From contig OZ360231.1 of the NCBI GenBank assembly GCA_977017645.1, positions 65,720,001-65,784,000 of the forward strand: DNA of 64,000 nucleotides, in the 5' to 3' direction. The notes under the pieces were generated by a model. That model worked only from the letters and a program-made list of their open reading frames with translations. It was not told where the DNA came from and made no database searches. This DNA is from Torpedo marmorata. Lineage: Eukaryota. A program made the position numbers and the translations under genes. Positions 6,804 to 53,970 of this stretch are shown here, piece after piece (positions within the stretch are counted from its first letter, which is position 1; the number at the start of each line of letters is the position of its first letter).

Positions 6804-6966
6804 AAACACGAAAATCTGTAGACACCGTAATAATGTAGTAAAAAACACATTTTCTCATACTTTGATGAAGGGCTCAAGCCCGAAACGTCGGTTATGTATT
6901 TCTACCTTTGCTACATAAAAGACACTGTTTGACCTGCTGAGTTCTCCAGCTTTTGTGTTTTTTACT
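6804..6966. mobile_element. 163-bp fold-back PLE pLTR mini-element inserted in L1 copy 2
   Basis: 16-bp TSD ATTTGAAAGAAGAAGT at 6788-6803 and 6967-6982. An inverted pLTR tail is followed by a sense pLTR segment carrying the hammerhead motif. Confidence 0.9.
6862..6889 (+). ncRNA. Minimal type I hammerhead ribozyme motif (C3U variant)
   Basis: TTGATGA-A-GGGC(TCAA)GCCC-GAAAC-GTC. Flanks CATACT and GGTTATG can form stem I; stem III is the palindrome ACGT. Confidence 0.75.
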
Positions 6967-9086
6967 ATTTGAAAGAAGAAGTTATTTATAAATGGAATTC
7001 TAAATTATTATTAAGAGGAGGAAAAAAACTCTCCTATTTTAAAGCACTTGTTAGAAATATGGAATAAAGTGGATAGGGAGATAGGAGGGAAAGGGTTAAT
7101 TTCTCAAAAAATGCCTTTATATCAAAATAAACTTATTCCATTTACTATTGATAATCAATTATTTAAAATTTGGTTCCAAAAGGGAATTAAAAAAATAAAT
7201 GATTGTTTTGAAGCTAGTAAATTTATTACTTTTCAAAGAATGAAAGTGAAGTTTAATATATTAAATAATACACTTTTTGCTTATTATCAAATTAGAGCAT
7301 TTTTAGTTGAAAGGTTGGGTTATAGTTTGGCTTTACTAAGACAAAGTGAACTGGAATTATTAGTTACTAATGGAGGTGTAAATACATTTATTTCTCAAAT
7401 GTATAGATTGTTACAGAGGAAAATGCCTAAATTAGGAATTCATAAATCAAGATTAAAATGGGAATCAGATTTGAATGTAATGATAGATGAAGAACATTGG
7501 AAAGAACTATGTAAACAAAGTATGACGAAGATTATTAACGTTAGATATAGGTTAGTGCAATATAACTTTTTTCATCAATTATATTTAACACCTAAGAAAT
7601 TCAATCCGACATTATCAGGTTTTTTTTTAGATGTAATAGAGAGGAAGGTTCCTTTGTACACTCTACATGGCTTTGTCCAAAGATATATGATTTTTGGTTG
7701 AAAGTTAAAAAGTTTTTAGACAAAGTATTAAGAATTACACTCCCAATGGATCCTATGATATTTTTGTTTGGAGATATTAAAAGAATTAGTATTAAGATGA
7801 GATTAAATATGTATCTAATAGAATTTTTGTGAATTGCTTTAGCTGTTTCTAAGAAATGCATTGCTATTACATGGAAGTCTGATGTAGATTTAGGGTTAGA
7901 GAGATGGCATGCAGAACTTCGTTCAGCTATAGCGCTTGAAAAAGTTACTTATAATTTACGTAATAAATACCATTTGTTTTTGAAAATATGGAGCCCATAT
8001 GTAAAAACTGTTGGCTTAAGGATTTGAAGATCTCTGGATATCAGATCTGACTGGCGAACCTTTGTTCCACAACAAAATTAGCTTATAGTTGTTGTTTTTT
8101 AGATTGACATTCTCCTTACTTTATCTTTTTCTTTCTTTCTTTCTATTTTATTAGAATAGTAGGGGTGGGAGGGTTAGGGAGGGAGGGAGGGGAGGGGGGT
8201 GAAAATATATCACATGTATTTTGATAATTTTGCATTTTACAATATGTATTATCGAGTGATTTTAAAATGTTAAATAAAATATTTTTTAAAATTTAAAAAA
8301 AGAACATGGAACATAGAAATCTACAGCACAGTGTTGTGCCAACCTAATAGCCTGCTCTAACAACTGCCTAGAATTTCCCTACTGCATAACCCTTCATTTT
8401 TCTCAGCTCCATGCATCTATCTAAAAGACTCTTAAAAGATCCTTTTAACCTGCCTCCACCACTGTTGCCGGCAGTGCATTGCATGCACCACCACTCTCAG
8501 TGTGAAAAACATACCTCTTGGATCACCCATGTACTTACTCCCAAGCACCTTTAAAACTATGCCCCCTTGTGTTGGCCATTTCAACCATGGGACAAAGCCT
8601 CTGGCCATACACATGATCAGTGCCTCATCATCTTGTACACCTCTGTCAGAACACCCCTCATCCACCCTCTGCCTTCTCTGGGCAAGCCAGTTCTGTACTA
8701 CAAAGCAAGGCCTCCTTGGATTTCATGCCTCCTTACTTTCTTGCATGGAGAACCTGATCAAATGCCTTAATGAAATCCATATGCACTACATCCACTGCTC
8801 CACCTTCTTCAATGTGCTTTGTTACATCCTCAAAAATTCAATCAGGCTTGTGAGACACAACCCTTCCCTGGCGAAGCCATGCTGACTATCCCTAATCAGA
8901 TTATACCTCTCTAAATGCTTGTAAATCCTGTCTCTCAGGATCTTCTCCAACAGCTTACCCACCACTGAAGAAAGAGTAAATCACGAAAATCTGTAGACAC
9001 CGTGGTTGAAGAAAAACACAAAATGCTGGAGAAGCTCAGCAGGTCAAACAGTGTCCTTTATGTAGCAAAGGTAAAGATACATAACC

Positions 9087-9114
9087 GACGTTTCGGGCTT
9101 GAGTCCTTCATCAA
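9087..9114 (-). ncRNA. Hammerhead motif (C3U) in pLTR, one stem II mismatch
   Basis: Reverse complement reads TTGATGAAGGACTCAAGCCCGAAACGTC. Confidence 0.6.
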
Positions 9115-10174
9115 AGTATGAGAAAATGCCGGCAGGCGTCCGAACTAAAGAGTGGGGGGTGGGGGGGAGGGAGGGGGGTGGCAAAGGCAGGAGATGATAG
9201 GTGGAGAAAGGAGGGAGGGGACAGCAGCACTGAGGGGGAGGAGGGATGGCTAGGTGGGTGGAACAACTGGAAGGACAGGGAAGGGGGGAGGGGAGAGAAA
9301 AGGTGAGCAGGTTTAGTGGAAAGCGGAAAAGTCAATGTTAATGCCATCTGGCTGGAGAGTGCCCAGACGAAAAAGAAGGTGTTGTTCCTCCAATTTGCAG
9401 GTGGTCTGGGTGGGATAGTACATAAGGGCATGGACAGACATGTGAGTGTGGGAGTGTGACTTGGAATTGAAATGGTTGGCTACTGGGAGGTCGCTGTTGT
9501 TGCGGACGGAGAGGAGGTGCTCAGCGAAGCGATCTCCCAATCTACGACCAGTCTCTCCGATGTAGAGAATGCCACAAAGGGAGCACCGGATGCAGTAAAT
9601 AGGTCCTCTGGATGTACAAGTGAAGTTATGCTTCACTTGAAAGGCCTGTTTGGGGCCCTGGACCGTGGTGAGGGAGGAGGTGTGGGCGCAAGTATTGCTC
9701 CTCCTGCGGGCACAGGGGAAGGTGCTGGGGGTGCGATAGGTGGGGAGGGATGAGGGCACGAGGGAATTGCGGAGGGAGCGGTCCCTGCGGAAGGCCAAGA
9801 GGGGAGGAGAAGGAAAAATGTGTCTGGTGGTGGGATCCTGTAATAAGTGCCAGAAATTCCAACGGATAAAGTGTTGGATGCCGAGGCTGGTGGGGTGGTA
9901 GGTGAGGATGAGGGGGTTTCTATGTTTGTTGTGTCTGGGGGCAGAGGTGGCCAGGGCAGATGAGCAGGAAATGGAGGAGATGCGGGTGAGGGCTGAGTTG
10001 ATAGTGGTGGAGGGGAAGCCACGTTTGTGGAAGAAGGCAGACATTTTGGAAGATCTGGACTGGAAGACCTCATCTTGGGAACAGATGTGGCGGAGACGGA
10101 GAAATTGAGAGAAGGGGATGGTATCCTTGCAGGGGTCAGGGTGTGAGGAAGAGTAGTCCAGGTAGTTGTGGGAG

Positions 10175-10843
10175 ATAAAAGTAAATTACGAAAATCTGTA
10201 GACACCGTGGTTGAAGTAAAAACACAAAATGCTGGAGAAGCTCAGCAGGTCAAACAGTGTCCTTTGTGTAGCAAAGGTAAAGTTACATAACTGACGTTTC
10301 AGGCTTGAGCCCTTCATCAAAGTATGAGAAAATGCCAACAGGCGTCCGAACAAAAGAGTGAGGGGGGGAAGGGAGTGTCAAAGGCAGGAGATGATAGGTG
10401 GAGAAAGGAGGGAGGGGACAGCAGCAATAAGGGGGAGGATGGATGGCTGGGTGGGTGGAAGGACAGGGAAGGGGGGAGGGGAAAGAAAAGGCAAGCAGGT
10501 TTAGTGGAAATCAGAAAAGTCAATGTTAATGCCATCTGGCTGGAGAGTGCCCAGACGGAAAATAAGGTGTTGTTCCTCCAATTTGCAGGTGGTCTGGGTG
10601 GGATAGTACATAAGGCCATGGACAGACATGGGAGTGTGACTCGGAATTGAAATGGTTGGTAACTGGGAGATTTCTGTTGTTGCTGACGGGGAGGAGGTGC
10701 TCAGCGAAGTGATCTCCCAATCTACGACCGGTCTCTCTGATGTAGAGAATGCCACAAAGGGAGCACTGGATGCAGTAAATATGTTCTCTGGATGTACAAG
10801 TTGATGGACGTCAGGTGGGTGTAGAGGCGGGAGTTGAACGCGT
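10175..10843 (-). mobile_element. Second 5'-truncated PLE (EN plus pLTR) nested in the same-family PLE
   Basis: The host RT reading YYKPSNS|HNYLDY is interrupted here. The insert has its own GIY-YIG end, pLTR and hammerhead motif at 10293-10320. Confidence 0.75.
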
Positions 10844-12119
10844 GGAGTTAGAGGGTTTGTAGTATATGTCGGTGGAAAGCTTGTCTCCCGAGATGGAGAC
10901 TGAGAGATCCAGGAAGGGGAGAGTGTTATCGGAGATGGACTAGGTGAGTTTAAGATCAGGGTGCATGAGGCAGCCCCGATATAGTCATCGATATACCGGA
11001 GGAAGAGTTGAGGGGTCTTGCCTGTGTCGGCTTGCAGCATGGATTTCTCCACAAAGCCCACAAACAGGCAGGCGTAGCTGGGATCCATGCGGGTACCCAT
11101 AGCTACTCCTTTGATTTGGAGGAAGTGAGATGAGTTAAAGGAGGTTATTTAGAGTGAGGACAAGTTCTGCCAGGCGGAGGAGGGTGGTGGTAGAGGGTGA
11201 CTGGTCGGGTCTTTGGTCCAGGAAGAAGCGAAGTGATTTGAGACCTTCTATGTGGGGGATGGAGGTATAAAGGGATTGGACGTCCATCGTGAAGATGAGG
11301 CGGTCCGGTTCGGGGAATCTAAAGTCATTGAAGAGATGGAGGGCATGTGAGGTGTCACGGATGTAGGTGGGGAGGGATTGGACCAGGGGAGAAAAGATGG
11401 AGTCAAGGTAAGATGAAACTAGTTTGGTGGGGCAGGAGCAGGCAGAAACAATGGGTCTGCCCGGATGGTTGGGTTTGTGTATCTTGGTAGAAATGGGCAG
11501 TGCGGGGGTGGGAGAGAATGAGGTTGGTGGCCGTGGAGGGGAGGTGACCAGAGGTGATAAGGTTGGAGATGGTGTTGGAGACAGTGGCTTGATATGTAGT
11601 GGTGGGGTCCTGTGGGAGGGGTCAGTAGGAGGAGGTGTCTGAGAGCTGTCGACTGGCCTCGGCAAGGTAGAGGTCAGTGCGCCAGACCACCACCGCACTG
11701 CCCTTGCCTGCGGGTTTGATGATGAGGTTGGGATTGTTGCGGAGAGAGTGGAGGGCATAGCGTTCTGAGGAGGTGAGGTTGGAATACGAGAGGGGGGTGG
11801 TAAAGTTGAGACGGTTGATATCTCGGCGGCAGTTGGAAATAAAAAGGTCCAGAGCGGGTAGCTGGCCAGAACAAGTTGTCCAGGAAGAGGAAGAAGGCTT
11901 GAAGCGGGAGAAAGGATCTTGGGTGGGAGGGGGGTGGAGAGTCACGGTCATGGAAGTGAGCCCGGAGGCGACGGAAGAAGAGTTTGGCGTCGCGGCATGC
12001 ACGTAAGTGTTGAATTCCCTCCCTCCTTTCTCCACCTATCATCCACTGCCTTTGCCACCCCCTTCCCCCCCCCACCCCCCACACTTTTGTTTGGACGCCT
12101 GCCGGCATTTTCTCATACT

Positions 12120-12147
12120 TTGATGAAGGGCTCAAGCCCGAAACGTT
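12120..12147 (+). ncRNA. Hammerhead motif (C3U, GUU site) in the inverted pLTR
   Basis: TTGATGAAGGGCTCAAGCCCGAAACGTT. Confidence 0.65.
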
Positions 12148-12613
12148 GGTTATGTATCTTTACCTTTGCTACATAAAGGACACTGTTTGACCTGCTGAGC
12201 TTCTCCAGCATTTTGTGTTTTTACTGAAGTAAGAGTCACTGGTCCAAAATGTCTTGGGTTATCTCTACTCCCTTTCTGGAACAGGAGAACAACATTTGTA
12301 ACCCTCCAATCTTGCGGTACTTATCCTGTCCCTAGTGAAGATGCGAAGATCTTGTTTTCCATAGTAGCCTTGGGTAAATCATGTCTGGTCCTGGTGACTT
12401 ATCTAACTTCATGCTTTTTAAAAGCTCCAACAGATCCTCTTTCTTGCTGTCAATATGCTCAAGCGTTTCAGGCTGCTTTAAGTTATCCTCACAATTGCTT
12501 CGGACCTTTTCTTTGGTAAATACCGGAGCAAAGTATTCATTAAGGATATACTGTCTGCTGAAAGGCTGAATTATCATTAATACTAATTTTATCACTAAAA
12601 TAAAAGATTATAA

Positions 12614-12883
<270 letters not shown>

Positions 12884-13627: not shown

Positions 13628-13920
13628 AAAACACAATGCTGGATAAACTCAGCTGGTTAAACAGTGTTCTTTATGTAGCAAAGATAAATATACATAACCA
13701 ACGTTTCGGGCTTGAGCCCTTCATCAAGGTATGAAGAGCTCGTCATACCTTGATGGTATGAAGGGTTTATTATACAGTATCTTGATGAAGGTCTCGAGCC
13801 CGAAACGTTGGTTATGTATCTTTATATTTGCTACATAAAGTACACTGTTTAACCAGCTGAGTTTATCCAGCATTATGTTTTTACTTCAACCACGGTGTCT
13901 ACAGACTTTCGTGTTTTACT
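13628..13920. mobile_element. Palindromic PLE pLTR mini-element with two hammerhead motifs (13700-13727 on -, 13782-13809 on +)
   Basis: Inverted arms of ~105 bp. TSD ACTATATTCAAAGTA at 13613-13627; its right copy (13921-13924 plus 14528-14538) is split by a later MITE. Confidence 0.88.
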
Positions 13921-22618: not shown

Positions 22619-25600
22619 TTTTTTTTTATACCAAATATAGACTTTATTCACAATAAATTATTTACAAAAAGAAAACCATTCAAAGTCTCTTCACACCCTT
22701 AGTTTCGTATCCATACATTTACATCATTGTACATTGTTACTTTTACACCATTGCCACCACTGTGGCACCTTGGCATTACTCTCCCCTCTGTTGTTTGAGG
22801 GGTTTCCCCTCGGTCTCAGCCTCTCAATGCCCGGTAATGGAAGGACTCTAGTCTTTGGTACTTCCCCACAGTGCCCTCGTGTTGGCTGCACCAAGCCTCA
22901 GTGCATCCCTCAGCATGTAATCCTGCAGCCTGGAATGTGCCAGTCTGCAGCATTCACGCACTGACATCTCCGTGTGCTGTAAGACCAACAGGTTTTGGAC
23001 AGACCAAAGTGTGTCTTTCACTGAGTTGATGGTTTTACTGCAGTTCTGGATGTCTGACTCTGTGTGTCCCCAGGAACAACTTGTAAATCAGAGAGTCCTC
23101 TGTCACGCTGCTACTGGGAATGAATCATGACAAGGGCCCTTGCATCCTTTTCCACACAATCTTAGCGAATCTGCATTCTGCAAAGAGGTGGACAACTGTC
23201 TCCACTCCACCGCAGTCATTTCAGGGACAATGTGCATTGTGGGTGATATTCTGGTTGTACAGGAAGGATCTGACTGGGAGGGCTCCTTTCACTGCCAGCC
23301 AGGCCAAGTCGTGCTTGTTCGTGTGCACCGGCAATGAGGCATTCCACTAGATGACCTGGACAGTCTGCTCAGGGAACAGCCCCACTATATCCATTGGTTC
23401 CTGATCTCTCAGTGTCTGCAGGACGTTCTGTGTTGACCACTACCTGTTGGCCTTGTGGTCAAAGGTGATTGTCTGAAAAACACTGACTTGTCTGGTGGTG
23501 TGGCAAAGTCCAGCTGACTGGGACATTGCGCAGCAATTGGGCCAGGCCCATCCTTCGCAACACCTGGGACAGTTAGAACCTCAGCAAATGGTGGCATTTG
23601 GTGCCCTCGTTACTATGGTTACACGCACAGCCTGATGCAACCACACACGAAGGTGGTCGTCATGATGAGGGCCTTGCCCCTGTCGTCTGGCGACTTGTAC
23701 ATGGCGACCCTTCAGACCCTTTCTTATCTTGCATCTGCTTATGAACTGAACAACTGCTCTGGTGACTGCTGGTGTGGAGGTGGGGGGGCGGGGTGATGGG
23801 CCACACCTCTGCAGCAGTACAGAGAGCACCTCGCACCTGATGACCAGGATCTTCCCTGTTATTGAGTGGGAGTGCCATGGCCACAGACCCAGTTACTGGT
23901 GGACCTTTACGATCCACTCTGACCAGTTTTTGTAACACACCCCGGCCCCTCCAAACTAGATTCCTAACACCTTCAGGTGGTCAGATCTGACGGTGAAGGG
24001 GATGGTGGACCAGTTGCACCAGTTACCGAAGAGCATTGCTTCGTACTTCCGGTTTACCCTGGCACCTGATGCAGATTCAAAATGCTGCAGTTGCTGATCA
24101 GTTTGCAGATCAATTGTGTGTCTGAACAGATGACAGTGACGTCGTCCATGTACAGGGAAGCTTTGACCTGAATGCCTCCATTGCCGGCAACATCATTCCC
24201 CTTATGCCCTTGTCCTTCCTGATGGATTCAGCAAAGGGCTGTATGCAGCACACAAATAAGACTGGAGAGAGCAGGCAATCCTGCCTGAATCCAGACTTGA
24301 CGAGGAGGTTATCTGTTTCCCACCCATTGATTTGGACTGCGCTACAGATGTCCATGTAGAGCAGTTTAATCCAATTTCTGATTCCCTCCCCAAAGCCCAT
24401 TTTAGAGAGCATGTCCATCATATCCGAGTGCAATATCCGGTTGATAGCCTTCTGGTCTAAGCTGACCAGGCAGGTGTCCACCACCTTGACCTGCATATAG
24501 ACGATGGTATCTCTGAACAACGTGAAGCTCAGAGATTTTCCTGCCCAGAACCATGCAGGTTTGGTCTGAGTGGATCACCTGCCCTAGGGCATACCGTACT
24601 TGACTCGATTGGCGATGGCTTTTGGACAGGATCTTGTAGTTAATGTTTAACAATGATATGGTTCTCAAATTCCTAATATCCTCCTTCTCCCCCTTCTATT
24701 TGAAGATGAAGGTGATGATACTCTTCTTCATGGAGTCTGGCATGCTGCCTGCCAGGAGCATAGCGTTTTATACTTCCAGCCGGTCTGGGCCCACCCAGTC
24801 CCACAGAGCTGTGGACAATTCAGCCGGTAAGCCATCGCTTCCGGGAGTTTTACTCGACCCATAGGAATGGATGGAGTCCATCAGCTCTCCCAGGGTAATT
24901 GGCTGGTCTAGACTCCACTTGCTGTCGTCTAAGATCTCCGTGGTACACGGAGTTCTGGAAGGCCATTCTGTCTAGCCTTAGTGTCATACTATTCTGCTGA
25001 TCCTCTGTATACCCATTTGCGAGGATGTGACTCAGCTTGAGGTTGTAGATCACAGAGGTCCCTTTGTGAACCCTTTGGAAGAAGCATGAACACAACTTAT
25101 CCTGCTCCACTGTGAGGACTCTGGATCAGAAAATGAAGCTTGCCAGCTCTTCATCTCTCGGAGTTCCTCTCTCCCATCCACTCTGCTCGACTGCAGAAGG
25201 AGGAGTTGCTGCAGGTCAATCTGATTTGGCTCAGTTTCCTCTGCCTCTGCCTTGCTCTCCGAACTACCTTTGAGGATAAAGAATATCTTCATGTTCTCCT
25301 TGGTCGCTTCCTACCAGTTCACTGGGGAGTCAAAGAGAGTTTCAAGGTTCTCCATCCAGCGTACTCCTTCTTTAGTTCCCTTACGTTCTCTGGGGTCAAC
25401 AACTTCATGTTCAGCTTCCACGTTCGTCTGCCTGCCTTCTGGTCCTTCTGTAGGTGACAGGAGGTGCGAAGGAGGCAGTTGTCAGAGAAGAACATTGGCG
25501 TAACATCGGTGGTTCTGACCGTGACGACCTTCAGCACGAAGAGGAAGTCTCTCCGAGACCGGATTGAGCCGTCCAATATCGACCAGGTGGGCTGCGGCTG

Positions 25601-27320: not shown

Positions 27321-27370
27321 TGTAAAGATATATAACCAACGTTTCAGGCCTGAGCCCTTCGTCAAGGTAT
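27321..27370 (-). mobile_element. PLE pLTR fragment with hammerhead motif (27338-27365), interrupted by the Tx1 element
   Basis: Reverse complement TTGACGAAGGGCTCAGGCCTGAAACGTT. The rest of the pLTR appears at ~22607-22620. Confidence 0.7.
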
Positions 27371-30940: not shown

Positions 30941-31873
30941 CAGTATATTTTGGCGTATAAGTCGACTCGCGGATAAGTCGACCCCCCTTTTTCAGCCTAA
31001 TTGTAATGGTTTTATTGTATATCCGGCGTATAAGTCGACCCCCAATTTTCAGGCTGTCCGGGCCTCCCAGCAACAACCCAAAATTTGTTACAACACCCCA
31101 ATCGCCAAGTAACAAAGCTGTAAATTAAGCAAGTAAGTATAAAAAAAACCTTTGCTTCTTGCGGGGAAGATGCCAAACGGAGCTGGGTCCAAGTCTTCAG
31201 CTTCGGCTGCAGCCAGAGTCGGCGACGGGCGACTCGATTCTCCACATCGGGTGCGGTGCTGTTCTCATTGAAGAAGTCGCCTCGCTGCCCAAGTGTGCTC
31301 GGTGCAGGAACCACGGTACGTGTCAGCTCCCGAGCAGGTGCGGGGACTCGTTCTCCCGAGCAGGTGCGGGGACTCGTTCTCCCGGGCATGAGCGGCGACG
31401 TCGTTCTCCCGGGCAGGTGCGGCGACCTCGTTCTCCCGAGCAGGTGCGGCGACCTCGTTCTCCCGAGCAGGTGCGGGGAGCTCATTCTCCCGAGCAGGTG
31501 CGGGGAGCTTGTTCTCCCGGGCAGGAGCGGCGACCTCGTTCTCCCGGGTAGGAGCGGGGACCTCGGGCTCTACAATTGTAGAATGTCTGGGTGGTTTATG
31601 GCGGCGCCCGGTGGTGGGGAGGTGTCGGGTAGCGGTGGCGCCGGCGGTGGGGAAGTGCTTCCAGCGTCGACCTATATGCCGAATCGGTTTTTCATGGGTC
31701 AACTTATACGCTGAATCGGGTTTTCAAGGGTCGACTTATATGCCGAATCGGCGTGGAGTGGTTTTTGAGCTGATTTTAAGGTCTCAAAAGTATATCTGGC
31801 GTATAAGTCGACCCCCGTTTTTTGAGAGATTTTTGAGGGTTTCAAGACTCGACTTATACGCCGAAATATACGG
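30941..31873. mobile_element. Tc1/mariner-superfamily (Tc2/pogo-like) MITE, 933 bp
   Basis: TIR C(A/C)GTATATTT(T/C)GGCGTATAAGTCGA, TA TSD and multiple subterminal TATAAGTCGAC motifs. Confidence 0.9.
31325..31562. repeat. GC-rich minisatellite (~26-27-bp unit TCGTTCTCCCGAGCAGGTGCGGGGAC, about 9 copies) inside the MITE
   Basis: Direct tandem units with no spacers. Confidence 0.9.
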
Positions 31874-34285: not shown

Positions 34286-35080
34286 AGAAAGTCTGTAGAT
34301 GCTGTGATTGTAGTTTACACAAAAATGCTGGAGAAACTCAGCAAGTCACTCAGTGTTCTTTATGTGGCAAAGATAAAGATACATGAGGCCATGGAGAGAT
34401 ATGCCGATGCGGGAGTGGGGCGTTGAATTGAAATGGTTGGCCAATGGGAGATCCCCACCATTGCTGCAGACAGAGCGAAGGTGCTCAACGAATCGATCTC
34501 CCATCAGCGTCCAGTCTCTCCAATGTAGAGAAGGCTACAACGGAATCACCGGATGCAGCAGATGACCCAGTGGCCAACCATTTCAATTCCGCGCTAACAT
34601 GTTTGTCCATGGCCTCATGGACTGCCAGACTGAGGCCACCCGCAGATTGGAGGAGTAACATCTAATATTCCATCTGGGCACTCTCCAACTGGGTGGCATT
34701 AGCATCAACTTCTACAGTTTCCATTAGGCCACTCCCCTGTCTCCCTCTCTCCCCCATCCCTCTGCGTCCTTTCCTCCAGCTCTCCACGCCCTTCCTTCTC
34801 CATTCGGAGCTACCTCTATCCCCTCCCTCTATCACCTCAGCTTTTTTCTCTTGCGCCCTCCCACCCATATCAATCTATGACCTCTTGCTTGTGGGCATGT
34901 GTCTCTCTTCCACCCCCCCCCCCTGCCCCCCGCCCCTTCCCCCACCTTTTTATTCAGGAGCCTGCCTGCTTTTAGCTCATATATTGACGAAGGGCTCAGG
35001 CCGCCCGAAATGTTGGTTATGTATCTTTATCTTTGCTACATAAAGAACGCTGTGTGACTTGCTGAGTTTCTCCAGCATTT
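34286..35080. mobile_element. Older rearranged PLE (inverted EN/pLTR pieces) with a decayed hammerhead motif near 34984
   Basis: Minus-strand pLTR tail and GIY-YIG piece to ~34562, then plus-strand PVANHFN..., pLTR and TTGACGAAGGGCTC...GAAATGTT. Confidence 0.75.
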
Positions 35081-40114: not shown

Positions 40115-41263
40115 CCTTGACAGTCCCCTGCAAGGATTCCATCCCCTTCTCTCAATTTCTCCGTCTCCGCTGCATCTGATGAGGTCTTCCAGATCTTCTG
40201 AAATGTCTGCCTTCTTCCACAAACGTGGCTTCCCCTCCACCACCATCAACTCAGCCCTCACCCGTATCTCCTCCATTTCCCGCTCATCTGCCCTGGCCCC
40301 CTCTGCCCCCAGATGCAACAAACATAGAATCCTCCTCATCCTCACCTACCACCCCACCAGCCTCCGCACCAACACATTATCCGCCGGAATTTCCGGCACT
40401 TACTACAGGATCCCACCACCAGACACATTTTTCCTTCTCTCCTCTCGGCCTTCCGCAGGGACCGCTCCCTCCGCGATTCCCTCGTGCACTCATCCCTCCC
40501 CACCCATCGCACCCCCGGCGCCTTCCCCTGTGCCCGCAGGAGGTGCAACACTTGTGCCCACAACTCCTCCCTCACCACGGTCCAGGGCCCCAAACAGGCC
40601 TTTCAAGTGAAGCAACACTTCACTTGTACATCCAGAGAACTTATTTACTGCATCCGGTGCTCCCTTTGTGGCATTCTCTACATCGGAGAGACCAGTCGTA
40701 GATTGGGAGATTGCTTTGCTGAGCACCTCCTCTCTGTCCGCAACAACAGCAACCTCCCAGTAGCCAACCATTTCAATTCCGAGTCACACTCCCACACTCA
40801 CATGTCTGTCCATGGCCTTATGTACTATCCCACCCAGACTACCCGCAAATTGGAGGAACAACATCTTATTTTCCGTCTGGGCACTCTCCAGCCAGATGGA
40901 ATTAACATTGACCTTTCTGCTTTCCTCTAAACCTGCTCGCCTTTTCCTTCCCCTCCCCCCTTATCTGTCCTTCCAGTTTTTTCCACCCACCCAGCCATCA
41001 CTCCTCCCCCTCTTTGCTGCTGTCCCCTCCCTCCTTTCTCTACCTATCATCTCTTGCCTTTGCCATCCCCCCTTCTCCCCCTCACTCTTTTGTTTGGACG
41101 TCTGCCGGCATTTTCTCATACTTTGATGAAGGGCTCAAGCCCGAAACGTCGGTTATGTATTTCTACCTTTGCTATATAAAAGACACTGTTTGACCTGCTG
41201 AGTTTCTCCAGCATTTGTGTTTTTTACTTCAACCACGGTGTCTACAGATTTTCATGATTTACT
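40115..41263 (+). mobile_element. 5'-truncated Neptune-type PLE (thumb, Cys linker, GIY-YIG, pLTR with tail)
   Basis: ORF 40484-40930 CARRRCNTC...LIYCIRC..YIGET. The pLTR ends ...ACGGTGTCTACAGATTTTCATGATTTACT. Confidence 0.9.
41123..41150 (+). ncRNA. Hammerhead motif (C3U)
   Basis: CATACT-TTGATGAAGGGCTCAAGCCCGAAACGTC-GGTTATG. Confidence 0.75.
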
Positions 41264-41588
41264 TTGATAAGAACAATTTGATTGAGACATCCAATCACAT
41301 GACTTATACAAATGGTATGGAAATTACCTTGGTTCATCTGGAGTTGGATACTTTTACCTGTTTTACGACAGGTTCCAAGAACAAGCAAGCAAGGAAAGAA
41401 GATAAAATTACAACCCCCTCTCCTCTTCCACCTTTGTACAGGGCCCCCAATCCAAATATTTCATAAAAATCGCACCCATTTTAAAATACCCAGGAATATC
41501 AATACACAGGGATGGTCGATCCTTATGCTACACAGATAAAGCCTCTCGTTAATGTAATTATCATACAGTGTATACCATGCAGAGAAAA

Positions 41589-41756
41589 GTAAAACATAAA
41601 AGTCTGCAGACACCGTGGTTGAAGTTAAAACACAATGCTGGAAAAACTCAGCAGGTATTGATGAAGGGCTCAAGCCCGAAACGTCGGTATGTATTTTTAT
41701 CTTTGCTATATAAAGTACACTTTTTGACCTGCTGAGTTTCTCCAGCATTGTGTTTT
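41589..41756. mobile_element. 168-bp fold-back PLE pLTR mini-element with hammerhead motif at 41658-41685
   Basis: 16-bp TSD TACCATGCAGAGAAAA at 41573-41588 and 41757-41772. The inverted tail joins directly to TTGATGA... Confidence 0.9.
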
Positions 41757-41846: not shown

Positions 41847-42024
41847 GCTGTAGGAACTCAATATGTCAGGCAGCATCTGTGGAGGGAAAGGAATAGTCGA
41901 TGTTTTGGTTGAGACTTTGCATCAGGAGTTGATGTTTCAGGTTGAGACCCTGCACCAGGAGCTGCTGAGTTTCTCCAGATGTCTGTTTTTTGCTCGAGAT
42001 TTCAGCATCTGTAGCCTCTTGTCT
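41847..42024. mobile_element. Ancient pLTR remnant of a different PLE family
   Basis: GGCAGCATCTGTGGAGGGAAA... and two decayed CCTG(A/G)TG...TCTCAACC...AAACATC motifs on the - strand, then an inverted tail. Confidence 0.55.
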
Positions 42025-43870: not shown

Positions 43871-46800
43871 TAGTCACTAATATGTGCATGTACATAATTG
43901 TGCATTGCTGCTAACTACAGTATATGATTGAAAAGTACCGGTATGTATGTACCAAAATATTATGAACTGCAATTTATCTCATTATTTAATCATACACTTT
44001 ATTCGAACAAACTTTTGTTCATACTATGAGAACTATCAGAATGAGGGAAACTTCAGAAAATTCTGATGGCCAAAATAAAATTGAAACAGAAAAAAATCAA
44101 AAGTTTATTACTTTGACTATTGCAGAGGTTAACAAGGAATCAAACTGTCACAGGCTGCAGGAGGTAATCATCCTCTTCTTCAAACAATGCAATTGCTTAA
44201 TAAAGATTAGAACAGAGTTATTAAACATTTTAGAGATGATTTTAAACATGTATCGGTAGATTTACTCAAAAGAAAATATTTCGTTTTTGTTTTGTCCTTT
44301 GTGGTATATTTAAAACACACAATTAAAATGTTTTGAACAATTTGCAGAGGAGGAGGTGGGTAGCCTTCTGGTCTAACTAGAATTATTAAAGTAATTTTTG
44401 GGGATCTTTTTAAAGATATTTCCTGTTGCATTTTTTCCAGTTAGAATTTGTGCAGAGGTTGGTAAGCTTAAGAGTCCGATTTAGTGTTGCTCACATTTAT
44501 GCTCTTATTTATCTGGATTTTTCAACAAACATAAACAATCATCCAAAATTATGAGCCTTTGTGATTATATAGTTTGTCTAGCTCTAGCATAATAAAACAG
44601 ACTGAGGCAATTGATTGAGAAAATAAAAAGGCAAAGAGAAAATTTTTGACAAAATATAAAATTATTGAAAATACTTGACAAAACATTTGCTTCAGGATGA
44701 GGACAGGCAGTGGGTATCATGAAGAAAATTTAATAGTAAGGGCCTGACGAGGTGATACCACAGATAGAGACAAGCAGTGAGATGAGCCAGAAGAATGCAA
44801 AAATTGTCTAATTTCAAAAGCACAGAGACAGGAAATTAAAGGGAAGAATAAGTCCATGCAAATGTCACTTTTAAGTTTGAAAACTTGTTGCCAATCCAAG
44901 CCATGATGAGGGTTATGTCAAGAGGTTTGGTATGTTTGAGGTGAAGAATTTTTGTAGGATTCATTTGCTGCTGTTTGAAGTTTGTTACAAATTCAAACCA
45001 GCAACGACAGAAGACGCAATGCAAAAGGTAAAATTGAAATTTATATTTATTAAAGACAATTTAAAACATATAATTTCTTAACAATTAACCCCACTATAAA
45101 TACCACATCATTAATGAACATAGATTCCCAAAACCCCCAGTCACATTGCTATAAGGTGAATTATGTCCATAAGGTCCACTACAATAAACACTATTCTTAT
45201 CTAAAGAGTGTGTGTGTGTGTAAAGCCCAGACCATTATAGTCTGTGCCCAACCCTCATGTAAAAATGGATAACCTTCTCCAAAACCCCCAGGTCAGTCAT
45301 AAAAATAAGTCAGTCCCAAAAATACAGTCCACAAAAATCACTGTCTATGTTCAGGGTCCAAATTCAGCTCTGTGCGCTGGCACGAAGGACTTCTTAATGA
45401 ACGTTGAAGAGAGAGACAATGACTTTTTAAGCTTACTGTTACAAAATCAAACCAGTAACGACAGAAGACGCAATGCAAAAGGGGTAAAATTGAAATTATT
45501 ATTTATTAAACACAAGTAAACATATAATATCACAACAATTAACCCCACTATAAACGTCTATAAACTCTATTCTTATCTAAAAGGTGTATGTGTGTGTGTG
45601 TGTAAAGCCCAGACCATTACAGTCTGTGCCCAACCCTTATGTAAAAGTGGAAAAACTTTCCCCAAAAACCCCAGGTCAGTCATAAAAAACAAGTCAGTCA
45701 AAAAAAAAGGATAATACAGTCGACAAAATCCACTCTCTAAGTTCAGGCTTCCACTTTTCCTCTGTGTCTGGTAGAAGTACTTCTGAATGAACGTTGGAGA
45801 GAGACAATGACTGTTTATGCTTACAAATACTTGTTTTCTTATCTGATGACGTCCCCTTGTAGGTTCATAAGGATTGCAAGTTCCAGATCAGTATACCACT
45901 GATTTAGGCTTATGCTTGAATCTCACAGCTAGTCTCGCTGATCTCACGCCTGTTCTCCACAGAAGTTGCTTTTTCTCAGAATTTTTCTGAGACAGGAGGC
46001 CATGTGCTATTTTGTCAGTCTTTTCTCTGACTTTACACAAGCCTGGATCTGGCTGTGTCTTGTAGCCTTTGCAACTCACAACTGTGTCTGCTTTGCAGAG
46101 ATCTGCCCCTGCTTTTTGCAGAAGTGAAACAAATGTATCTTGTCTAGCCTGTCTCTCTCTCTCTGGTCTCTCTCTGTCTTGGTACACCAAGAGTGCAACA
46201 ATGTATCTTGTCTGGGTACACCAAGTAGCTGGGGAAGTTAACTCAGTACCTGGCCCCAGTGTATACTCCAAAAGAATTCATCCTTCCTGCTGACCGTCCG
46301 CAGTCCAAATGGTCAGTAATGGTCCATAACACCTCCCACCCACAAAGGAAATTTTGGTCTGCAAGAACAAAATTTAGGAAAGTAACTGAGGTGTCAGAAT
46401 ATAAACAAAATCTACAATGTTCATCCACAAATACAAAATATGAACTATTTTCATTGATAAAGTTTAACATCTAGAAAGACAATCAGCAATTACATTATCT
46501 TTCCCTTTTATATGAGTGATTACCAAATTATATTCTTGTAAAATTAGACTCCAATTCAACAACCGTCGATTCTTATTTTTCATTTTACAAAGAAAAACCA
46601 ATGGATTATGGTCAGTATACACTATGAGTGGTTTTTGAGCTGTACAGATATACACATCAAAGTGTTGTAGAGCCAACACAAGAGCCAACAACTCTTTCTC
46701 TATAGTTGAATAATTCCTTTGATGATCATTGAACTTCTTCGAGAAGTAGGATACCGGATGGTCAATGTCCTCTTCACTCTTCTTCTGTAACAGCACCGCA

Positions 46801-47464
46801 CCCACAGCTTCATCGCTCGCATCCACGGCTAAAGAAAACGACTGTTCTAAATTAGGTGACTTAAGCACAGGTTGGTGGCATAACATGGCTTTCAATTTGA
46901 CAAATGCTTCCTGACAACCTGTTGACCATACAAATTTTTCTTTCTTTCTAAGCAAATTTGTGAGAGGGAGCGCAAGATCAGCAACGTTTTTACAGAACTT
47001 GCCAATCATTCCCAGGAACCTCCTCAGAGTTTTCTTACCAGTTGGAACAGGGAACTCGGAAATAGCGACAACCTTTGCCTCTACTGGCGCCAACTGCCCC
47101 TATCCTACTACATAACCCAGATAAATAACAGTAGCATGTCCAAACTCACTTTTACTTAAATTAACTGTGAGTTTTGCTTTGGACAGTCGTTCAAACAATT
47201 GTTTTAGCTCAAAGACATGCTCTTCCCAGGTCTCACTACTTACAATTAAATCATCAATGTAAGCACCTGTGTTTTTCAACCCTTGAATCACTGAATTAAT
47301 CATTCTCTGAAATGTTCCTGGAGCATTCTTCATACCAAAAGGCATAACATTATACTCATAAAGCCCAAAAGGTGTTACGAATGCAGAAATCTCCCTAGCC
47401 CTTTTTGTCAAAGGAACACACCAGTATCCTTTTAATAAGTCAATTTTTGTATCTTCCGTATAGT

Positions 47465-49537
47465 TTACTTCACCCCAAGGTGTCCACCAAAGGGTGTACT
47501 ATGAGCCAAAGTTATTATTGCATCCCTATATACTTTAGGGATCACAACCTGCTGCACTACTGCCCATTCTTCATTGGCAGGAACATCACGTGGTCTCCAC
47601 TTTCTCATCAACACCCCATCTTTTTCAAAATAACCTACTGGCACCTTTTTAATCTCCTCTTCAGAGAGAACCTTATCCCTCACCTCAACAAGATCAGGAT
47701 CGTCCTTTTGCCTTGCTATTAACTCCTGTCGGGATAGTGACAAATCTGTGCCTTTAGGTGTCTTATCAGTGGATGGGTGTAATATAGGAGATAGCTCAAC
47801 CGTTTCCAGGTTTTCTTGATTATCAGTGTCTTTTTCTTTTACCAAGTTATTTTCCACTGCCTTATCTACAGTGACATTTTTCTTAGACATAGCCCTGGTT
47901 ATGGCACATGCCGGATAAATATCAGAGTCTTTCTCTGATTTATCAATGACTGGCTTAGTGGTCATTCTCACTGCAGGAACTACTTTACCCTTGGCCAAGT
48001 CATTGCCTAACAACAGTGAGACTCCTTCTACGGGCAACTCTGATCTCACTCCTATTATAACTGGTCCTTCCACCAAGTCTGAGTCCAATACTATTTTGTG
48101 CAAAGGAATGGACTCTACCTCACCACCAATTCCTTTTATTAAATTTATGTCACCGGTGTCAGTAGCTTCACAAAATTCCAAGACACTATCTAACACAAGT
48201 GACTGAGCAGCTGCAGTATCTCGCAAGATTTTCACTGGAACTTGTTTTGATCCTGCCTTAACTGAAACAAAACCATCAATCACAAAAGATTTAAATACAT
48301 CTTTAACTTTGTCAGTAAATTTATCTCCTTCCTGGGTGTTATACATCTTCTCACTCTGAATACAAGCATTAGGTGTTGTATCCTTTTCTCTCTTCTTTTT
48401 CAACACTGGACAGCTTGCTAGCATATGACCAACCTTCCTACAGTAGTGGCAAATGGGACCTGAATTGTTTTCCCTTTTCCACTTTCCTTCATCCCTTTCC
48501 TTAACACCACTTCCAAATTTACTTTCCACTTGCTTCTGATTATCCACCGTGACCTTTTGGAAAATTCTACCTGACGTCCACTTAGGCTTGTGGGTTAAAG
48601 CATATTCATCTGCTAACTTAGCTGAATTTTGCCAAGTTTTCACCTCCTTTTCATCTAAGTATGCCTTAATATCCTCAGGAACACACCTTTTTATCTCCTC
48701 GATTATTATCAATTCTCTCAATTGATTGTAATCATTGTTTACTTCCTTAGATGTGCACCATCTGTCAAAACACACAACTTTTTCATAGGCAAACTCTGTA
48801 TAAGATTGGGTTGCTGATCTTTTTAAATTTCTAAACTTCTGTCTATAAGCCTCTGGAACTAACTCATAAGCCTGGAGTATAGCCTTTTTCACCGTTTCAT
48901 AATCAGCAGCTTGCTCTGTGGTGAGAGTAGAATAAGCTTGCTGAGCTTTTCCTTTTATTACACTTTGCAACATAAGAGACCATTGGTCTTGTGGCCATTT
49001 TAATTTCACAGCCACTTTCTCAAAATGTTGGAAGTACTTATCTATTTCTGCCTCCTCAAATGGAGGAACCAACCTAACTTCTCTACTAGCCAAAAACCCC
49101 TCAGCAGGATGACGAATTTGATCTTGGCGCTCTTCTTGTCTCCTCTCATTTTCCAACCTCATCTTTTCCAACTCATATTTCCTATTTCTCTCATCGTTCT
49201 CTAAGTCTAATCTCTTTTGTTCTAATTCCATGTCAAATTTCTTTTGTTCCCTGTCTGCCTCCAATTCTAATTTCCTTTGTTTCAATTCCCTGTTCTTTTG
49301 TTCCAATTCCAATTTCTTTAATTCCAACTGTATGTTTTCAGAGGGTTTACCCTTGGGAAACTGCTCTAACATGCTCTCCTCAAATTTTTTTTCTTTTATA
49401 TAGTATTTGACAATTTTTCTCCCAATCTCTGCCTTTTTCATAGATGGTTTTACAGAAGCAATGCCCAACTCTGTTGCTATAGCCACTAACTGTTCCTTTT
49501 TCACCTTTTTTAAAATATCAGGTTTAGGTGATTCCAA
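47465..49537 (-). pseudogene. Gmr1-like Gag (capsid/SCAN-like CTD, CCHC), protease and integrase N-terminus; 690-aa open stretch
   Basis: YELVPEAYRQKFR..FDRW..LRELIIIEE capsid; CHYCRKVGHMLASC; LRDTAAAQSL protease; AHSTPFGGHLG integrase Zn motif. The natural ATG at ~49556 is frameshifted by a T run. Confidence 0.9.
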
Positions 49538-49671
49538 AAAAATGTTCTACATCCATTGTTGCTGTTTTTTTGTTACACACACACTAGCTTTTAATTAGCT
49601 TTACAAAAGGAATGCCTTATATCAAACTGGGATTCCTTCAATTACCAAGAAGGATTTTGATTCAAATCCTA

Positions 49672-49684
49672 GGACGAGCCCCCA
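49672..49684 (-). promoter_or_regulatory. Primer-binding site complementary to the tRNA-Pro 3' end
   Basis: Reverse complement TGGGGGCTCGTCC, 3 nt inside the 5' LTR boundary. Confidence 0.85.
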
Positions 49685-52600
49685 ATTTGTTACAAAATCA
49701 AACCAGCAACGACAGAAGACGCAATGCAAAAGGGGTAAAATTGAAATTATTATTTATTAAACACAAGTAAACATATAATTTCACAACAATTAACCCCACT
49801 ATAAACGTCTATAAACTCTATTCTTATCTAAAATGTGTATGTGTGTGTAAAGCCCAGACCATTACAGTCTGTGCCCAACCCTTATGTAAAAATGGAAAAA
49901 CTTTCCCCAAAAACCCCAGGTCAGTCATAAAAAACAAGTCAGTCAAAAAAAAAGGATAATACAGTCGACAAAATCCACTCTCTAAGTTCAGGCTTCAACT
50001 TTTTCTCTGTGTCTGGTAGAAGTACTTCTGAATGAACGTTGGAGAGAGACAATGACTGTTTATGCTTACAAATACTTGTTTTCTTCTCTGATGACGTCCC
50101 CTTCTTGTAGGTTCATAAGGATTGCAAGTTCCAGATCAGTAAACCACTGATTTAGGCGTGTGCTTGAATCTCACAGCTAGTCTCGCTGATCTCATGCCTG
50201 TTCTCCACAGAAGTTGCTTTTTCTCAGAATTTTTCTGAGACAGGAGGCCATGTGCTATTTTGTCAGTCTTTTCTCTGACTTCACACAAGCCTGGATCTGG
50301 CTGTGTCTTGTAGCCTTTGCAACTCACAACTGTGTCTGCTTTGCAGAGATCTGCCCCTGCTTTTTGCAGAAGTGAAACAAATGTATCTTGTCTAGCCTGT
50401 CTCTCTCTCTCTGGTCTCTCTCTGTCTGGGTACACCAAGAGTGCAACAATGTATCTTGTCTGGGTACACCAAGTAGCTGGGGAAGTTAACTCTTTCAGTA
50501 CCTGGCCCCAGTGTATACTCCAAAAGAATTCATCCTTCCTGCTGACCGTCCGCAGTCCAAATGGTCAGTCATGGTCCATATCATTACGAATGCTTGGCCT
50601 GCTTTTCTTCCTGGATGACTTTCCCTTTTGGTAGGTGCACGAGGATTACGATTCCAAATCAGTATACCACTGATTGAGGCATATACTTGGATCTCACAGC
50701 CTGTCTCGCTGATCTCACTCCTGTTCTCCATGAAAGTTGCTTTATCTCAGTCTTTTACTGATAAAGGAGGCCATGTGCTCTTCTCCACAGCCTTTCTAGC
50801 TGGAATACGCAAGCCTCTGGTTTTGCTGTGTTGCTCCAGCCTTTTGCAACTCCAAACTGAATGCTTTTTGCAGAGGTTTGCACCTGCTTTTGCAAAAGTG
50901 CAACAAAGTATCTTTCCACAGCCTGTCTCTCTCTCTCTGAGCACAGCCAGTCCTGGGCAAGTTACCTCTTTCAGTACCTGGTCCCAGTGTGTACACCAAA
51001 AGACTTCATCCTTCTTACTGACCGTCCGCAGTCCAAATGGTCAGTCATGGTCCATAACACCTCCCACCCACAAAGAAAAGTTTGGTCTGCAAGAACAAAA
51101 TTTTGGAAATTAATTGAGGTGTCACAATATAAACAAAACCCACAATGTTCATCCACAAACACAAAAATGTAAACTATTTTCATTTATAAAGTTTAGTATC
51201 TAGAAAGACAATCAGCAATTAGATTATCTTTCCATTTTATATGTGTTATCATTAAATCATATTCTTTCAAAATTAGATTCCAATTCAACAACTGTTGATT
51301 CTTATTTTTCATTTCACAAAGAAAAACCAATAGATTATGGTTAGTATATACTGAGTGGTTTTTGAGCTGTACAGATATACACATCAAAGTGTTGTAGAGC
51401 CAACACAAGAGCTAACAACTCTTTTTCTATGGTTGAATAATTCATTTGATGATCATTGACCATCCTACTTCTCGAAGTTCAATGTCCTCTTTGTTCTTCC
51501 TCTGTAACAGCACCACACCCACAGCTTCATCGCTGGTATCCACGGCTAAAGAAAACGGCTGTTCTAAATTAGGTGACTTAATCACAGGTTGGTGGCATAA
51601 AATGGCTTTCAATTTGACAAATGCTTCCTGACAACCTGTCAACCATACAAATTTTTGTCCCTTTCTAAGCAAATTTGTGAGAGCGCAAGATCTTCAGAGT
51701 TTTCTTACCAGTTGGAACAGGGAACTCGGAAATAGTCACAACCTTGGCCTCTACTGGCGCCAACTGCCCCTGTCCTACTACATAACCCAGATAATTAACA
51801 GTCCCATGACCCTCTCTGAAACTGGTTTTATCTGTCTCCTCCTTATCCCAGTCGATAAGCAGCACGTCTGGTAAATGATCAGTCTCTTTGTGTGGCACCT
51901 GTTCAAAATATGGCTTAATCATATTCACATGACAGACCTGTGTGTCTTGTCTGCGATTAGGTGTTTCTATGACATAGGTGACCTCATTAATTTTAGACTT
52001 AACTCTATAGGGTCCTGAAAATCTAGCCTAAGAGGATTTGAATGTGTGGGAAACAGAACTATTACGTTCTCACCAGGTTTAAAAGTTCTCATCTTGGCTT
52101 TTTGATCATAGCAAACCTTCATTCTCTGTTGAGTGGCCTTTAAATTCTCCTTTGCCATCTCACAAGCTTTATGCAACCGATCCTTAATCCTTAAATTTGG
52201 AAACATAATCCAACAGATTTAAATGCACATCACTATTGATACACTGTTCTTTTAATAACCTTAAAGGACCCCTCACTTCATGTCCGAAAACTAACTCGAA
52301 TGGACTAAAACCAAGTGATTCTTGGACAGACTCCCTCGCTGCAAATAACAACAAATGAACCCCCTCATCCCAATCCTTTTCCTTCTCACAACAATAGGTT
52401 CTAATCATGGTTTTCAAAGTCGAATGGAACCTCTCCAAGGCCCCTTGACTTTCTGGATGGTACGCAGAGGATACAATCTGTTTAACTCCCAGTTCATCAA
52501 CCACTTGTTGGAAAACGCCTGACATGAAATTACTGCCCTGATCTGATTGAATTTCCCTTGGCAAACCTACCAAGATGAAAAACTTTACCATAGCCTTTAC

Positions 52601-53626
52601 AATTGCCTTTGCTTTAATGTTTCTCAAGGGAATGGCCTCTGGAAATCTGGTGGCTGCACACATAATTGTTAACAAATACTCATTCTCCGCTTTGGTTTTG
52701 GGCAATGGGCCAACACAGTCCACAATCACTCTCGAGAAAGGCTCACTGAAAGCAAGGATAGGTTGCAAGGGTGCCACCGGGGGACCCTGATTAGGTTTAC
52801 CCACCACCTGACAAGTGTGACAGGCCCAGAAAAAGCTTACAACCTCCCTTCTCAAACTGCGCCAATAAAATTGTTTCATTATCTTCCGTATAGTTTTCTT
52901 CACCCTCAAGGTGACCACCTACAGGTGTGCAATGAGCCAAAGTTATTATTTCATCCCTATATACTTTAGGGATCACAACCTGTTGCACTACTGCCCATTC
53001 TTCACTGGCAGGAACATAACATGGTCTCCACTTTCTCATTAACACCCCATCTTTTTCATAATAACCCACTGGCACCTTTTTAATCTCCTCTTCAGAGAGA
53101 ACCTTATCCCTCACCTCAGTAAGATCAGGATCCTCCTTCTGCCTTGCTATTAGCTCCTGTCGGGATAGTGACAAATCTGTGCCTTTTGTGTCTTATCAGT
53201 GTATGGGTGTAACACAGGAGATTGCTCAACCTTTTCCAGGTGTTTTTGATTATCACCGAATTTTTCTTTCACCAATTTATTTTCCACTGCCTTCTCTACA
53301 GTGACATTTTTCTTAGACATGGCCCTGGTTATGGCACATGCCGAATAAATATCAGAGTCATTCTCTGACTTATCAATGACTGGCTTAGTGGTCATTTGCA
53401 CTGCAGGAACTACTTTACCCTTTGCCAAGTCATTGCCTAGCAACAGTGAGACTCCTTCTACTGGCAAATCTGATCTCATTCCTATTATAACAGGTCCTTC
53501 CACCAAGGCTGAGTTCAACACTATTTTGTGCGAAGGAATGGACTCAACATCACCCCCAATTCCTTTAATTAAATTCATTTCACCGGTGTCAGTGGCTTCA
53601 CAAAATCCCAAGACACTATCTAACAC

Positions 53627-53970
53627 TCTCCAGCCAGATGGCATTAACATTGACTTTTCTGCTTTCCACTAAACCTGCTTGTAGATCCCTTCACCTCTCC
53701 CCTCACCTGTCCTTCCTGTTTTTGTCCAGGTACTTAGCCATCCCTCCTCCCCCTCTTTGCTGCTGTCCCCTCCCTCCTTTCTCCACCTATCATCTCCTGC
53801 CTTTGCCACCCCCCTTCCCCCCTCACTCTTTTGTTCGGATGCCTACCGGCATTTTCTCATACTTTGATGAAGGGCTCAAGCCCGAAACGTCGGTTATGTA
53901 TTTCTACCTTTGCTACATAAAAGACACTGTTTGACCTGCTGAGTTTCTCCAGCATTTGTGTTTTTTATTT
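53627..53970 (+). mobile_element. PLE pLTR fragment with hammerhead motif (53864-53891) inserted in the Gmr1-B protease
   Basis: 10-bp TSD TATCTAACAC at 53617-53626 and 53971-53980. Confidence 0.9.

What the first reader, a model, noticed from the sequence alone, without database searches (positions are those of the whole stretch)
6862..53891. Eleven minimal hammerhead motifs, all with U in place of the conserved C3, in Neptune-type PLE pLTRs
Seen: TTGA(T/C)GA-A-GGGC-TCAA-GCCC-GAAACGT(C/T), with minor variants, at 6862(+), 9087(-), 10293(-), 12120(+), 13700(-), 13782(+), 27338(-), 34984(+, decayed), 41123(+), 41658(+) and 53864(+). Established: PLE pLTRs carry minimal type I hammerheads with a palindromic stem III that cleave as dimers, and canonical cores need the C3-G8 pair. 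Every copy here has U3 with G8 kept, an extra A after A9 and a loop-less ACGT stem III, so the variant is fixed in a recently mobile family rather than decay. Inference: an attenuated or dimer/protein-dependent ribozyme, or a fold reused as an RT recognition signal. Seven copies are on the DCAF6 pre-mRNA strand.
Basis: partly seen in the sequence, partly recalled or inferred. Interest (0 to 1): 0.7.

Follow-up and report, generated by a model that had tools for sequence, protein, structure and literature searches.

The report
Wobble-core hammerhead in prolific Penelope retrotransposon
A jumping gene with over 100,000 copies in this vertebrate genome carries a small hammerhead RNA motif whose normally fixed C-G core pair is U-G in every recent subfamily examined, while the rest of the motif stayed conserved, so it is likely a slow or helper-dependent self-cutting RNA, although cutting is untested.

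Summary
All 11 motifs are real. They are minimal type I hammerheads in the terminal repeats of a Neptune-type Penelope-like element (PLE). U3 with G8 is fixed in the master lineage: 117,704 U3 against 3,040 C3 copies genome-wide, both repeats of intact elements, and contigs of other coded organisms. C3 revertants (0.7%) and U3-A8 (about 1.2%) occur only at mutation background. U3 arrived with a one-base gain that lengthened stem I. Across 10 U3 subfamily consensuses, 0 of 10 core positions changed against 28 of 48 flank positions, N7 takes all four bases, and stem I shows paired changes. Copies do not pile up at the cut site, and neither do the C3 ancestors. The extra A after A9 and the palindromic stem III are standard for PLE hammerheads, and one U3-G8 example is already drawn in Cervera and De la Pena 2014 (Fig. 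S3). No strand bias in the host gene (7 of 11). Best reading: an attenuated, protein- or dimer-assisted ribozyme on a mostly uncut template; cleavage untested. The scan found this family at least four times before in this genome. New variant of a known kind.

The parts
6862..6889 (+). U3-G8 minimal hammerhead (position 3 to 17), main subfamily, in a short head-to-head pLTR stub (6797-6967) with a 16-base target duplication
9087..9114 (-). U3-G8 hammerhead, one stem II mismatch, at the 3' end of a truncated PLE (8975-10174) with the GIY-YIG end of the ORF
10293..10320 (-). U3-G8 hammerhead at the 3' end of a second truncated PLE in tandem (10179-12013)
12120..12147 (+). U3-G8 hammerhead in the inverted piece (12017-12222) that closes the composite insertion
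13700..13727 (-). U3-G8 hammerhead, older subfamily (C2.1), left arm of a head-to-head stub pair
13782..13809 (+). U3-G8 hammerhead with stem II decay, right arm of the same pair
27338..27365 (-). U3-G8 hammerhead with C7, short stub of an older subfamily
34984..35014 (+). decayed U3-G8 hammerhead with C7 and a 3-base duplication in stem II, in an older PLE piece (34288-35080)
41123..41150 (+). U3-G8 hammerhead at the 3' end of a truncated PLE (40123-41264)
41658..41685 (+). U3-G8 hammerhead stub whose 5' junction falls at position 3; 5' strand of stem I missing
53864..53891 (+). U3-G8 hammerhead, main subfamily, in a truncated PLE end (53624-53967)
9313..10185 (-). 3' part of the PLE ORF (Zn-finger-like linker and GIY-YIG endonuclease), 90% identical to the intact 1159-aa frame of L119
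18774..43870 (+). host gene: WD40-repeat exons read in frames at 18774, 19682, 32442, 35352, 35959 and 43703 (DCAF6-like by recall)

Best explanation
The motifs are the terminal-repeat hammerheads of an autonomous Neptune-type Penelope-like retrotransposon in which a U-G mismatch replaced the C3-G8 core pair in the master lineage, and they likely act as a slow ribozyme, predicted to cut only as a dimer or with the element's own protein, kept by selection while most RNA is likely copied uncut. Shown: U3 in the masters, a conserved core, paired changes in stem I, no revertant or compensated subfamily, no pile-up of copy ends at the cut site. Inferred: that U3 came from a one-base gain that put the old C into stem I, that the fold forms, that it cuts, and that slow cutting is tolerated because reverse transcription starts downstream and must read through the motif. 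The window's copies are truncated passengers; a role in the host gene is not indicated.
For: U3 68,603 vs C3 474 exact copies; 117,704 vs 3,040 with free N7 and loop. Four of 10 fetched long loci hold both pLTRs and an open frame of 1158-1159 aa, all with U3 in both repeats. U3-A8 1,386 vs control G5A 1,133 copies, both near 1%. 0 of 10 core and 1 of 10 stem II/III positions differ among 10 U3 subfamily consensuses against 28 of 48 gap-free 3' flank columns (Fisher p=0.0008). In 78 copies found by a downstream anchor and not by the core, N7 is T53/A13/G8/C4 while non-CpG core positions differ in at most 6. Stem I: 3 of 6 pairs with changes on both sides, 4 of 500 shuffles reach the covariation score. 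No T>C at position 3 listed at the 3% threshold in 8 of 8 runs laid (three runs had under 15 contigs, and the table hid 2 rows). Literature: PLE minimal hammerheads cut weakly and only as multimers (PMC4209133); the Anolis PLE hammerhead needs its protein and its cleavage is dispensable for insertion in vitro (PMC11167929).
Against: No cleavage data. Only 80 of 94,325 anchor matches have a junction at the cut site (the total includes a satellite array), and only 8 of 29 inspected are true joins to other DNA; the +12 control gives 86. A lineage that needed cutting should have favoured C3 or U3-A8 masters, and none amplified. Loop II is nearly as conserved as the core, so the conservation is not specific to catalysis. 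Several subfamilies were found with core-fixed patterns, which inflates core invariance; the 12 rows were hand-picked and related, 4 of 11 break the 2.3-1.4 pair in the chosen register, and the U2.1-A1.1 change is a CpG-type mutation. Monomer folds of the main subfamily pair the core with stem III and the cut site instead (P(2.1-1.1)=0.09). The strong loss of rate by C3U alone is recalled from the literature; those papers were not held.
Confidence: 0.5

Rival explanations
1. The motif is catalytically dead and is kept as a non-cutting signal: a binding or folding site for the PLE protein, a reverse-transcription pause, or a DNA-level promoter element of the pLTR.
For: No cut-site junctions in U3 copies and at most 1 of 60 in C3 ancestors; 14 of 25 copies that hold the 5' UTR run through the whole upstream hammerhead, 1 of 25 starts at the cut site; 5' junctions are frequent at the 5' edge of the motif (1,440 at -4, vs 361 at -31); no revertant amplified; hammerhead mutants do not affect insertion in vitro; Naiad PLEs thrive without hammerheads (bioRxiv 2021.04.23.441226).
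Against: The freedom of N7 beside invariant G5, A6, G8, A9, G12 and A13, with H17 kept as C or U, is the pattern of a catalytic core. Insertion 3' ends lie 75-110 bases downstream. The -4 peak may be a target-site microhomology effect, and 40 of the first 100 listed matches are the two halves of 20 fold-back palindromes. Circularisation after cutting would leave no cut-site junctions.
Confidence: 0.3
2. Neutral vestige: the hammerhead lost function before or at the U3 step and hitch-hikes in successful masters.
For: The immediate C3 ancestor had a weak stem I, with C3 predicted to pair with G1.1 (P=0.65); the youngest subfamily has G10.1-U11.1 in place of the conserved G-C pair.
Against: 28 of 48 flank columns and a 7-base indel changed while the core did not; stem I grew from 4 to 6 pairs by two routes after U3.
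Confidence: 0.1
3. The ribozyme is fully active in vivo: the protein, the dimer or an alternative register (old C kept as C3 with a U inserted after it) restores normal rates.
For: U3 copies of the transitional subfamily are one base longer than C3 copies (9 of 10 vs 8 of 10 with an upstream anchor; 3 and 24 copies had none); older U3 subfamilies keep C just before U3; saltern hammerheads with insertions near C3 still cut at high Mg2+ (PMC3088659).
Against: The dominant and the youngest subfamilies have U at 2.1, so no C is available; the C pairs with G1.1 in stem I where present; no cut-site junctions.
Confidence: 0.1

Closest known systems
Minimal type I hammerheads (min-HHR) in pLTRs of metazoan Penelope-like elements (Cervera and De la Pena 2014, PMC4209133)
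   Same: Position in both pLTRs, CUGANGAH-type box with an extra base after A9, G10.1-C11.1, GAAA, palindromic 15.2-16.2 with no loop 3, NUH cut site, short stem I, many solo copies.
   Different: U3 with G8 instead of C3-G8 (their discussed variant is U3-A8); over 100,000 copies against thousands; G10.1-U11.1 in the youngest subfamily.
Saccoglossus kowalevskii (1) PLE min-HHR in Fig. S3 of PMC4209133
   Same: Drawn with a UUGAAGAA box, that is U3 with G8, a CGU stem III and a short stem I: 1 of 56 representatives.
   Different: A single example, not discussed in the parts of the text I read and not assayed there; no lineage history.
Anolis Poseidon PAc hammerhead (PMC11167929)
   Same: pLTR hammerhead upstream of two RT start sites that define a 30-40 base tail; no RNA or DNA ends at the cut site.
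   Different: Canonical C3-G8; Poseidon clade; shown to cut only with protein; the ORF starts inside the motif, here the first ATG is about 180 bases downstream.
Saltern hammerhead variants with 2a/2b insertions (PMC3088659; one given as U3...G8 in PMC7151607)
   Same: Natural change at or next to position 3 with low residual activity.
   Different: Prokaryotic or phage setting, two inserted bases, high-salt dependence.

Membership tests
PLE minimal type I hammerhead | Located in both pLTRs of an RT plus GIY-YIG element | tested here: met
PLE minimal type I hammerhead | Core U4 G5 A6 N7 G8 A9, G12 A13 A14, A15.1-U16.1, H17 | tested here: met
PLE minimal type I hammerhead | Watson-Crick pair between positions 3 and 8 | tested here: not met
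   U3 with G8; C3 and A8 forms only at mutation background
PLE minimal type I hammerhead | Stem II, stem I and palindromic stem III | tested here: met
   4-bp stem II 100% paired, stem I 88% paired in 11 distinct hand-picked copies; ACGU palindrome
PLE minimal type I hammerhead | Self-cleavage as a dimer or with protein | not testable with these tools
   no assay; only contigs were available, which cannot show RNA ends
Neptune clade of EN+ PLEs | C-terminal GIY-YIG endonuclease after the RT | tested here: met
   RVT_1 at 647-829 and GIY-YIG at 1063-1102, both just under Pfam's cut-off
Neptune clade of EN+ PLEs | CX2-5CXXC Zn-finger-like linker before the endonuclease | tested here: met
   CARRRCNTC in the intact frame; feature as given, shared with Nematis
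Neptune clade of EN+ PLEs | Placement in an RT tree with reference clades | not tested
   no reference sequences were at hand
EN+ PLE insertions | Partial tandems, inverted 5'-truncated partners, 30-40 base tail | tested here: met

The most novel reading that the evidence does not exclude
A one-base register repair created a U3-G8 wobble hammerhead that has been held by selection through about ten subfamilies and across related species, outlasting its C3 ancestors and never reverting: a deliberately slow ribozyme that lets a retroelement keep uncut template while still cutting occasionally, or only inside its own protein complex.
Probability: 0.3. Interest if true: 0.65.

Novelty: new variant of a known kind. 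Interest (0 to 1): 0.45.

Why it matters
What hammerheads do for Penelope-like elements is open. A family with intact young copies, over 100,000 insertions, a broken core pair and its C3 ancestors in the same genome gives a matched natural series to test whether cutting is needed, must be slow, or is irrelevant. It also shows that searches that require CUGANGA miss the most abundant hammerhead motif of such a genome.

Tried and rejected
Rfam scan: no hammerhead family hit. Pfam on five truncated window frames: nothing; the intact frame gave weak hits. Cut-site scar test: negative in U3 copies and in C3 ancestors, so it cannot be ascribed to U3. Transcript-start run-off at -4: not supported, since 5' junctions of 25 copies holding the 5' UTR scatter from -1365 to +124. 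The first junction histogram stopped artificially near -50 at a variable pyrimidine tract and was used only for 3' ends and by eye. The flank count (30 of 35) was inflated by a misaligned indel and replaced. The pattern was mis-specified and its count is not used. Sequencing runs: no RNA holder listed; all eight laid runs are contigs, one guessed to be RNA. Host-gene strand bias: none. Thermodynamic folding does not show the active or the dimer fold and is weak evidence either way. Atlas search not available. Papers not held: Lunse 2017 (the closest study of small PLE hammerhead variants; it may already cover U3-G8), Przybilski 2007, Martick 2006, Lee and York 2010, Nelson and Uhlenbeck 2008. 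Searches for a discussion of U3-G8 or C3U found none beyond PMC7151607; the library is partial and the bioRxiv supplements are closed.

Full report
Observation. All 11 motifs are present at the stated places, each with U at position 3, G8, one extra A after A9, a 4-bp stem II and GAAAYGT; the loose motif has 0 hits in 20 shuffles. They sit on truncated pieces of one Penelope-like element (PLE) family, several in head-to-head pairs. Seven share the strand of a WD40 host gene (DCAF6 is my recall), which is no bias (p=0.55). Two decayed C3 remnants lie near 41900-41958(-).

The element. A search of the own genome with a window frame listed 135 scored matches, four with open frames of 1158-1159 aa. 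I fetched 10 of the long-frame loci; those four hold pLTR-ORF-pLTR with U3 in both repeats. The frame has an RT, a CARRRCNTC linker and a GIY-YIG domain, which fits Neptune as defined in bioRxiv 2021.04.23.441226 (passages); no tree was built. The motif lies about 190 bases after the stop and about 180 before the first ATG. Insertion 3' ends cluster about 75-80 bases after the cut site or run on through a tail to about 110, as for the two RT start sites of the Anolis element (PMC11167929, passages and section 3 part 2). Reverse transcription therefore starts downstream and reads through the motif (inference).

Fixation. Exact U3 copies number 68,603 against 474 with C3; with N7 and the loop free, 117,704 against 3,040, and most of the 30 C3 loci read belong to older subfamilies with other flanks. 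U3-A8 (1,386) is as rare as the control G5A (1,133). Neither a revertant nor a compensated master amplified. Contigs of 8 runs under seven organism codes show no T>C at position 3 at the 3% threshold, while N7, 2.1, loop II, 17 and CpG sites vary; three runs had under 15 contigs, the 80% likeness filter favours close subfamilies, and one run may be the source of this assembly.

Origin. One transitional subfamily with a shared 3' flank has both forms (597 matches; 18 C3 and 12 U3 among 30 loci). U3 copies are one base longer before the box: 9 of 10 have six bases after an upstream anchor, 8 of 10 C3 copies have five (3 and 24 copies lacked the anchor). The simplest path is one inserted T that moved the old C into stem I opposite G1.1; a C gain followed by C3U fits one copy and is not excluded. 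In the C3 ancestor that C is already predicted to pair with G1.1 (P=0.65), so the gain may have repaired the register (inference).

Selection after U3. Among 10 U3 subfamily consensuses (4 to 116 copies each; copies that fit no rule and the junction-selected loci were left out) 0 of 10 core and 1 of 10 stem II/III positions differ, against 28 of 48 gap-free flank columns (p=0.0008). Part of this is built in, because several subfamilies were found with core-fixed patterns and two were split by N7. The check without that bias: of 162 copies found by a downstream anchor, 78 had a full box, 20 a partial one and 64 none; in the 78, N7 takes four states while non-CpG core positions differ in at most 6 copies. 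On 12 hand-picked natural copies (11 distinct) stem I has 3 of 6 pairs changed on both sides, 4 of 500 shuffles reach the score, and slid controls fall to 48% paired or less; 4 of 11 break one pair in this register, one change is CpG-type, and the rows are related. Loop II is nearly as conserved as the core, which a non-catalytic role would also give.

Is it cut? Junctions exactly at the cut site number 80 of 94,325 anchor matches (the total includes a satellite array). Of 29 inspected, 13 are inversions, 8 small indels and 8 joins to other DNA. Controls: 86 at +12, 361 at -31, 1,440 at -4; the share that each pattern can catch differs (about 0.18, 0.34, 0.34 and 0.39, estimated by hand). The -4 peak holds many fold-back palindromes (40 of the first 100 listed) and may reflect target microhomology. 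Of 25 copies with the 5' UTR, 14 run through the upstream hammerhead and 1 starts at the cut site. C3 ancestors behave alike: at most 1 of 60 starts there. Templates are thus mostly uncut or re-ligated, before and after U3. No RNA reads were available.

Literature. PMC4209133 (parts 1-2 of 4 of the text, parts 1-2 of 3 of the supplement) gives the extra base after A9 and the palindromic stem III as consensus, reports U3-A8, low activity even as multimers, and draws one U3-G8 motif (Saccoglossus) among 56. PMC11167929 shows protein-assisted cutting that is not needed for insertion in vitro. PMC3088659 (section 8 and passages) and PMC7151607 (passages) describe U3-A8 and saltern variants near position 3. 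PMC3884650 (passages) confirms the C3-G8 pair. PMC6765202 and bioRxiv 2026.07.22.740005 were seen as passages, PMC6795133 only in its reference list. Lunse 2017 and the mutational papers on the 3-8 pair were not held; the strong effect of C3U is recalled. Searches found no discussion of a U3-G8 PLE family.

Earlier scan notes. At least four notes describe this same family in this genome with the same reading, and one the stubs that begin at the motif. My reading and the junction counts were made before I saw them. Notes on cut-site scars in other genomes prompted the C3 control.

Verdict. It is built like a PLE minimal hammerhead but fails the 3-8 Watson-Crick test. Most likely a slow, assisted ribozyme kept by selection on the element (0.5); a non-cutting signal (0.3), a neutral vestige (0.1) and full activity in vivo (0.1) remain. 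New variant of a known kind, interest 0.45.

Noticed in passing
G000:C1:705500-721700 (L389 holds 705500-712500): A satellite of about 27-base units derived from the pLTR segment that spans the hammerhead cut site (from about A15.1 to 20 bases downstream), without the core; at least 16 kb long.
   Followed up: partly
G000:C5:20311138-20314403: Ten matches to the PLE 5' UTR anchor at a 363-base period, four on one strand and six on the other: a tandem mini-element array that may be retrozyme-like.
   Followed up: no
L250, L253, L259, L262, L266 and many more: Perfect fold-back insertions centred 4 bases before U3; other inversions join the copied 5' strand of stem I to its 3' strand (L132-L136), as if the cDNA primed on itself through stem I.
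   Followed up: partly
L119:7031-7066: The youngest intact subfamily has A7, G10.1-U11.1 and U2.1-A1.1; the last two are CpG-type changes fixed in a master.
   Followed up: partly
L119:3897-5357: A 450-490 codon open frame overlaps the repeat-rich N-terminal part of the PLE ORF in another frame in several intact copies; may be a by-product of the C-rich repeat.
   Followed up: no
window 45000-55000: Nested gypsy-type LTR retrotransposon pieces (gag, RT, integrase frames on the minus strand) with LTR copies at 28434, 44979, 45433, 49684 and 57875; described only.
   Followed up: no
window 587-7700 and 55512-57736: L1/Tx1-like LINE pieces in both orientations.
   Followed up: no
window 31341-31597: 27-base tandem repeat, about nine units.
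   Followed up: no
window 24100-27300: Decayed CCHC-gag and endonuclease-RT frames of another non-LTR element on the minus strand, with a PLE stub at its edge (27338).
   Followed up: no
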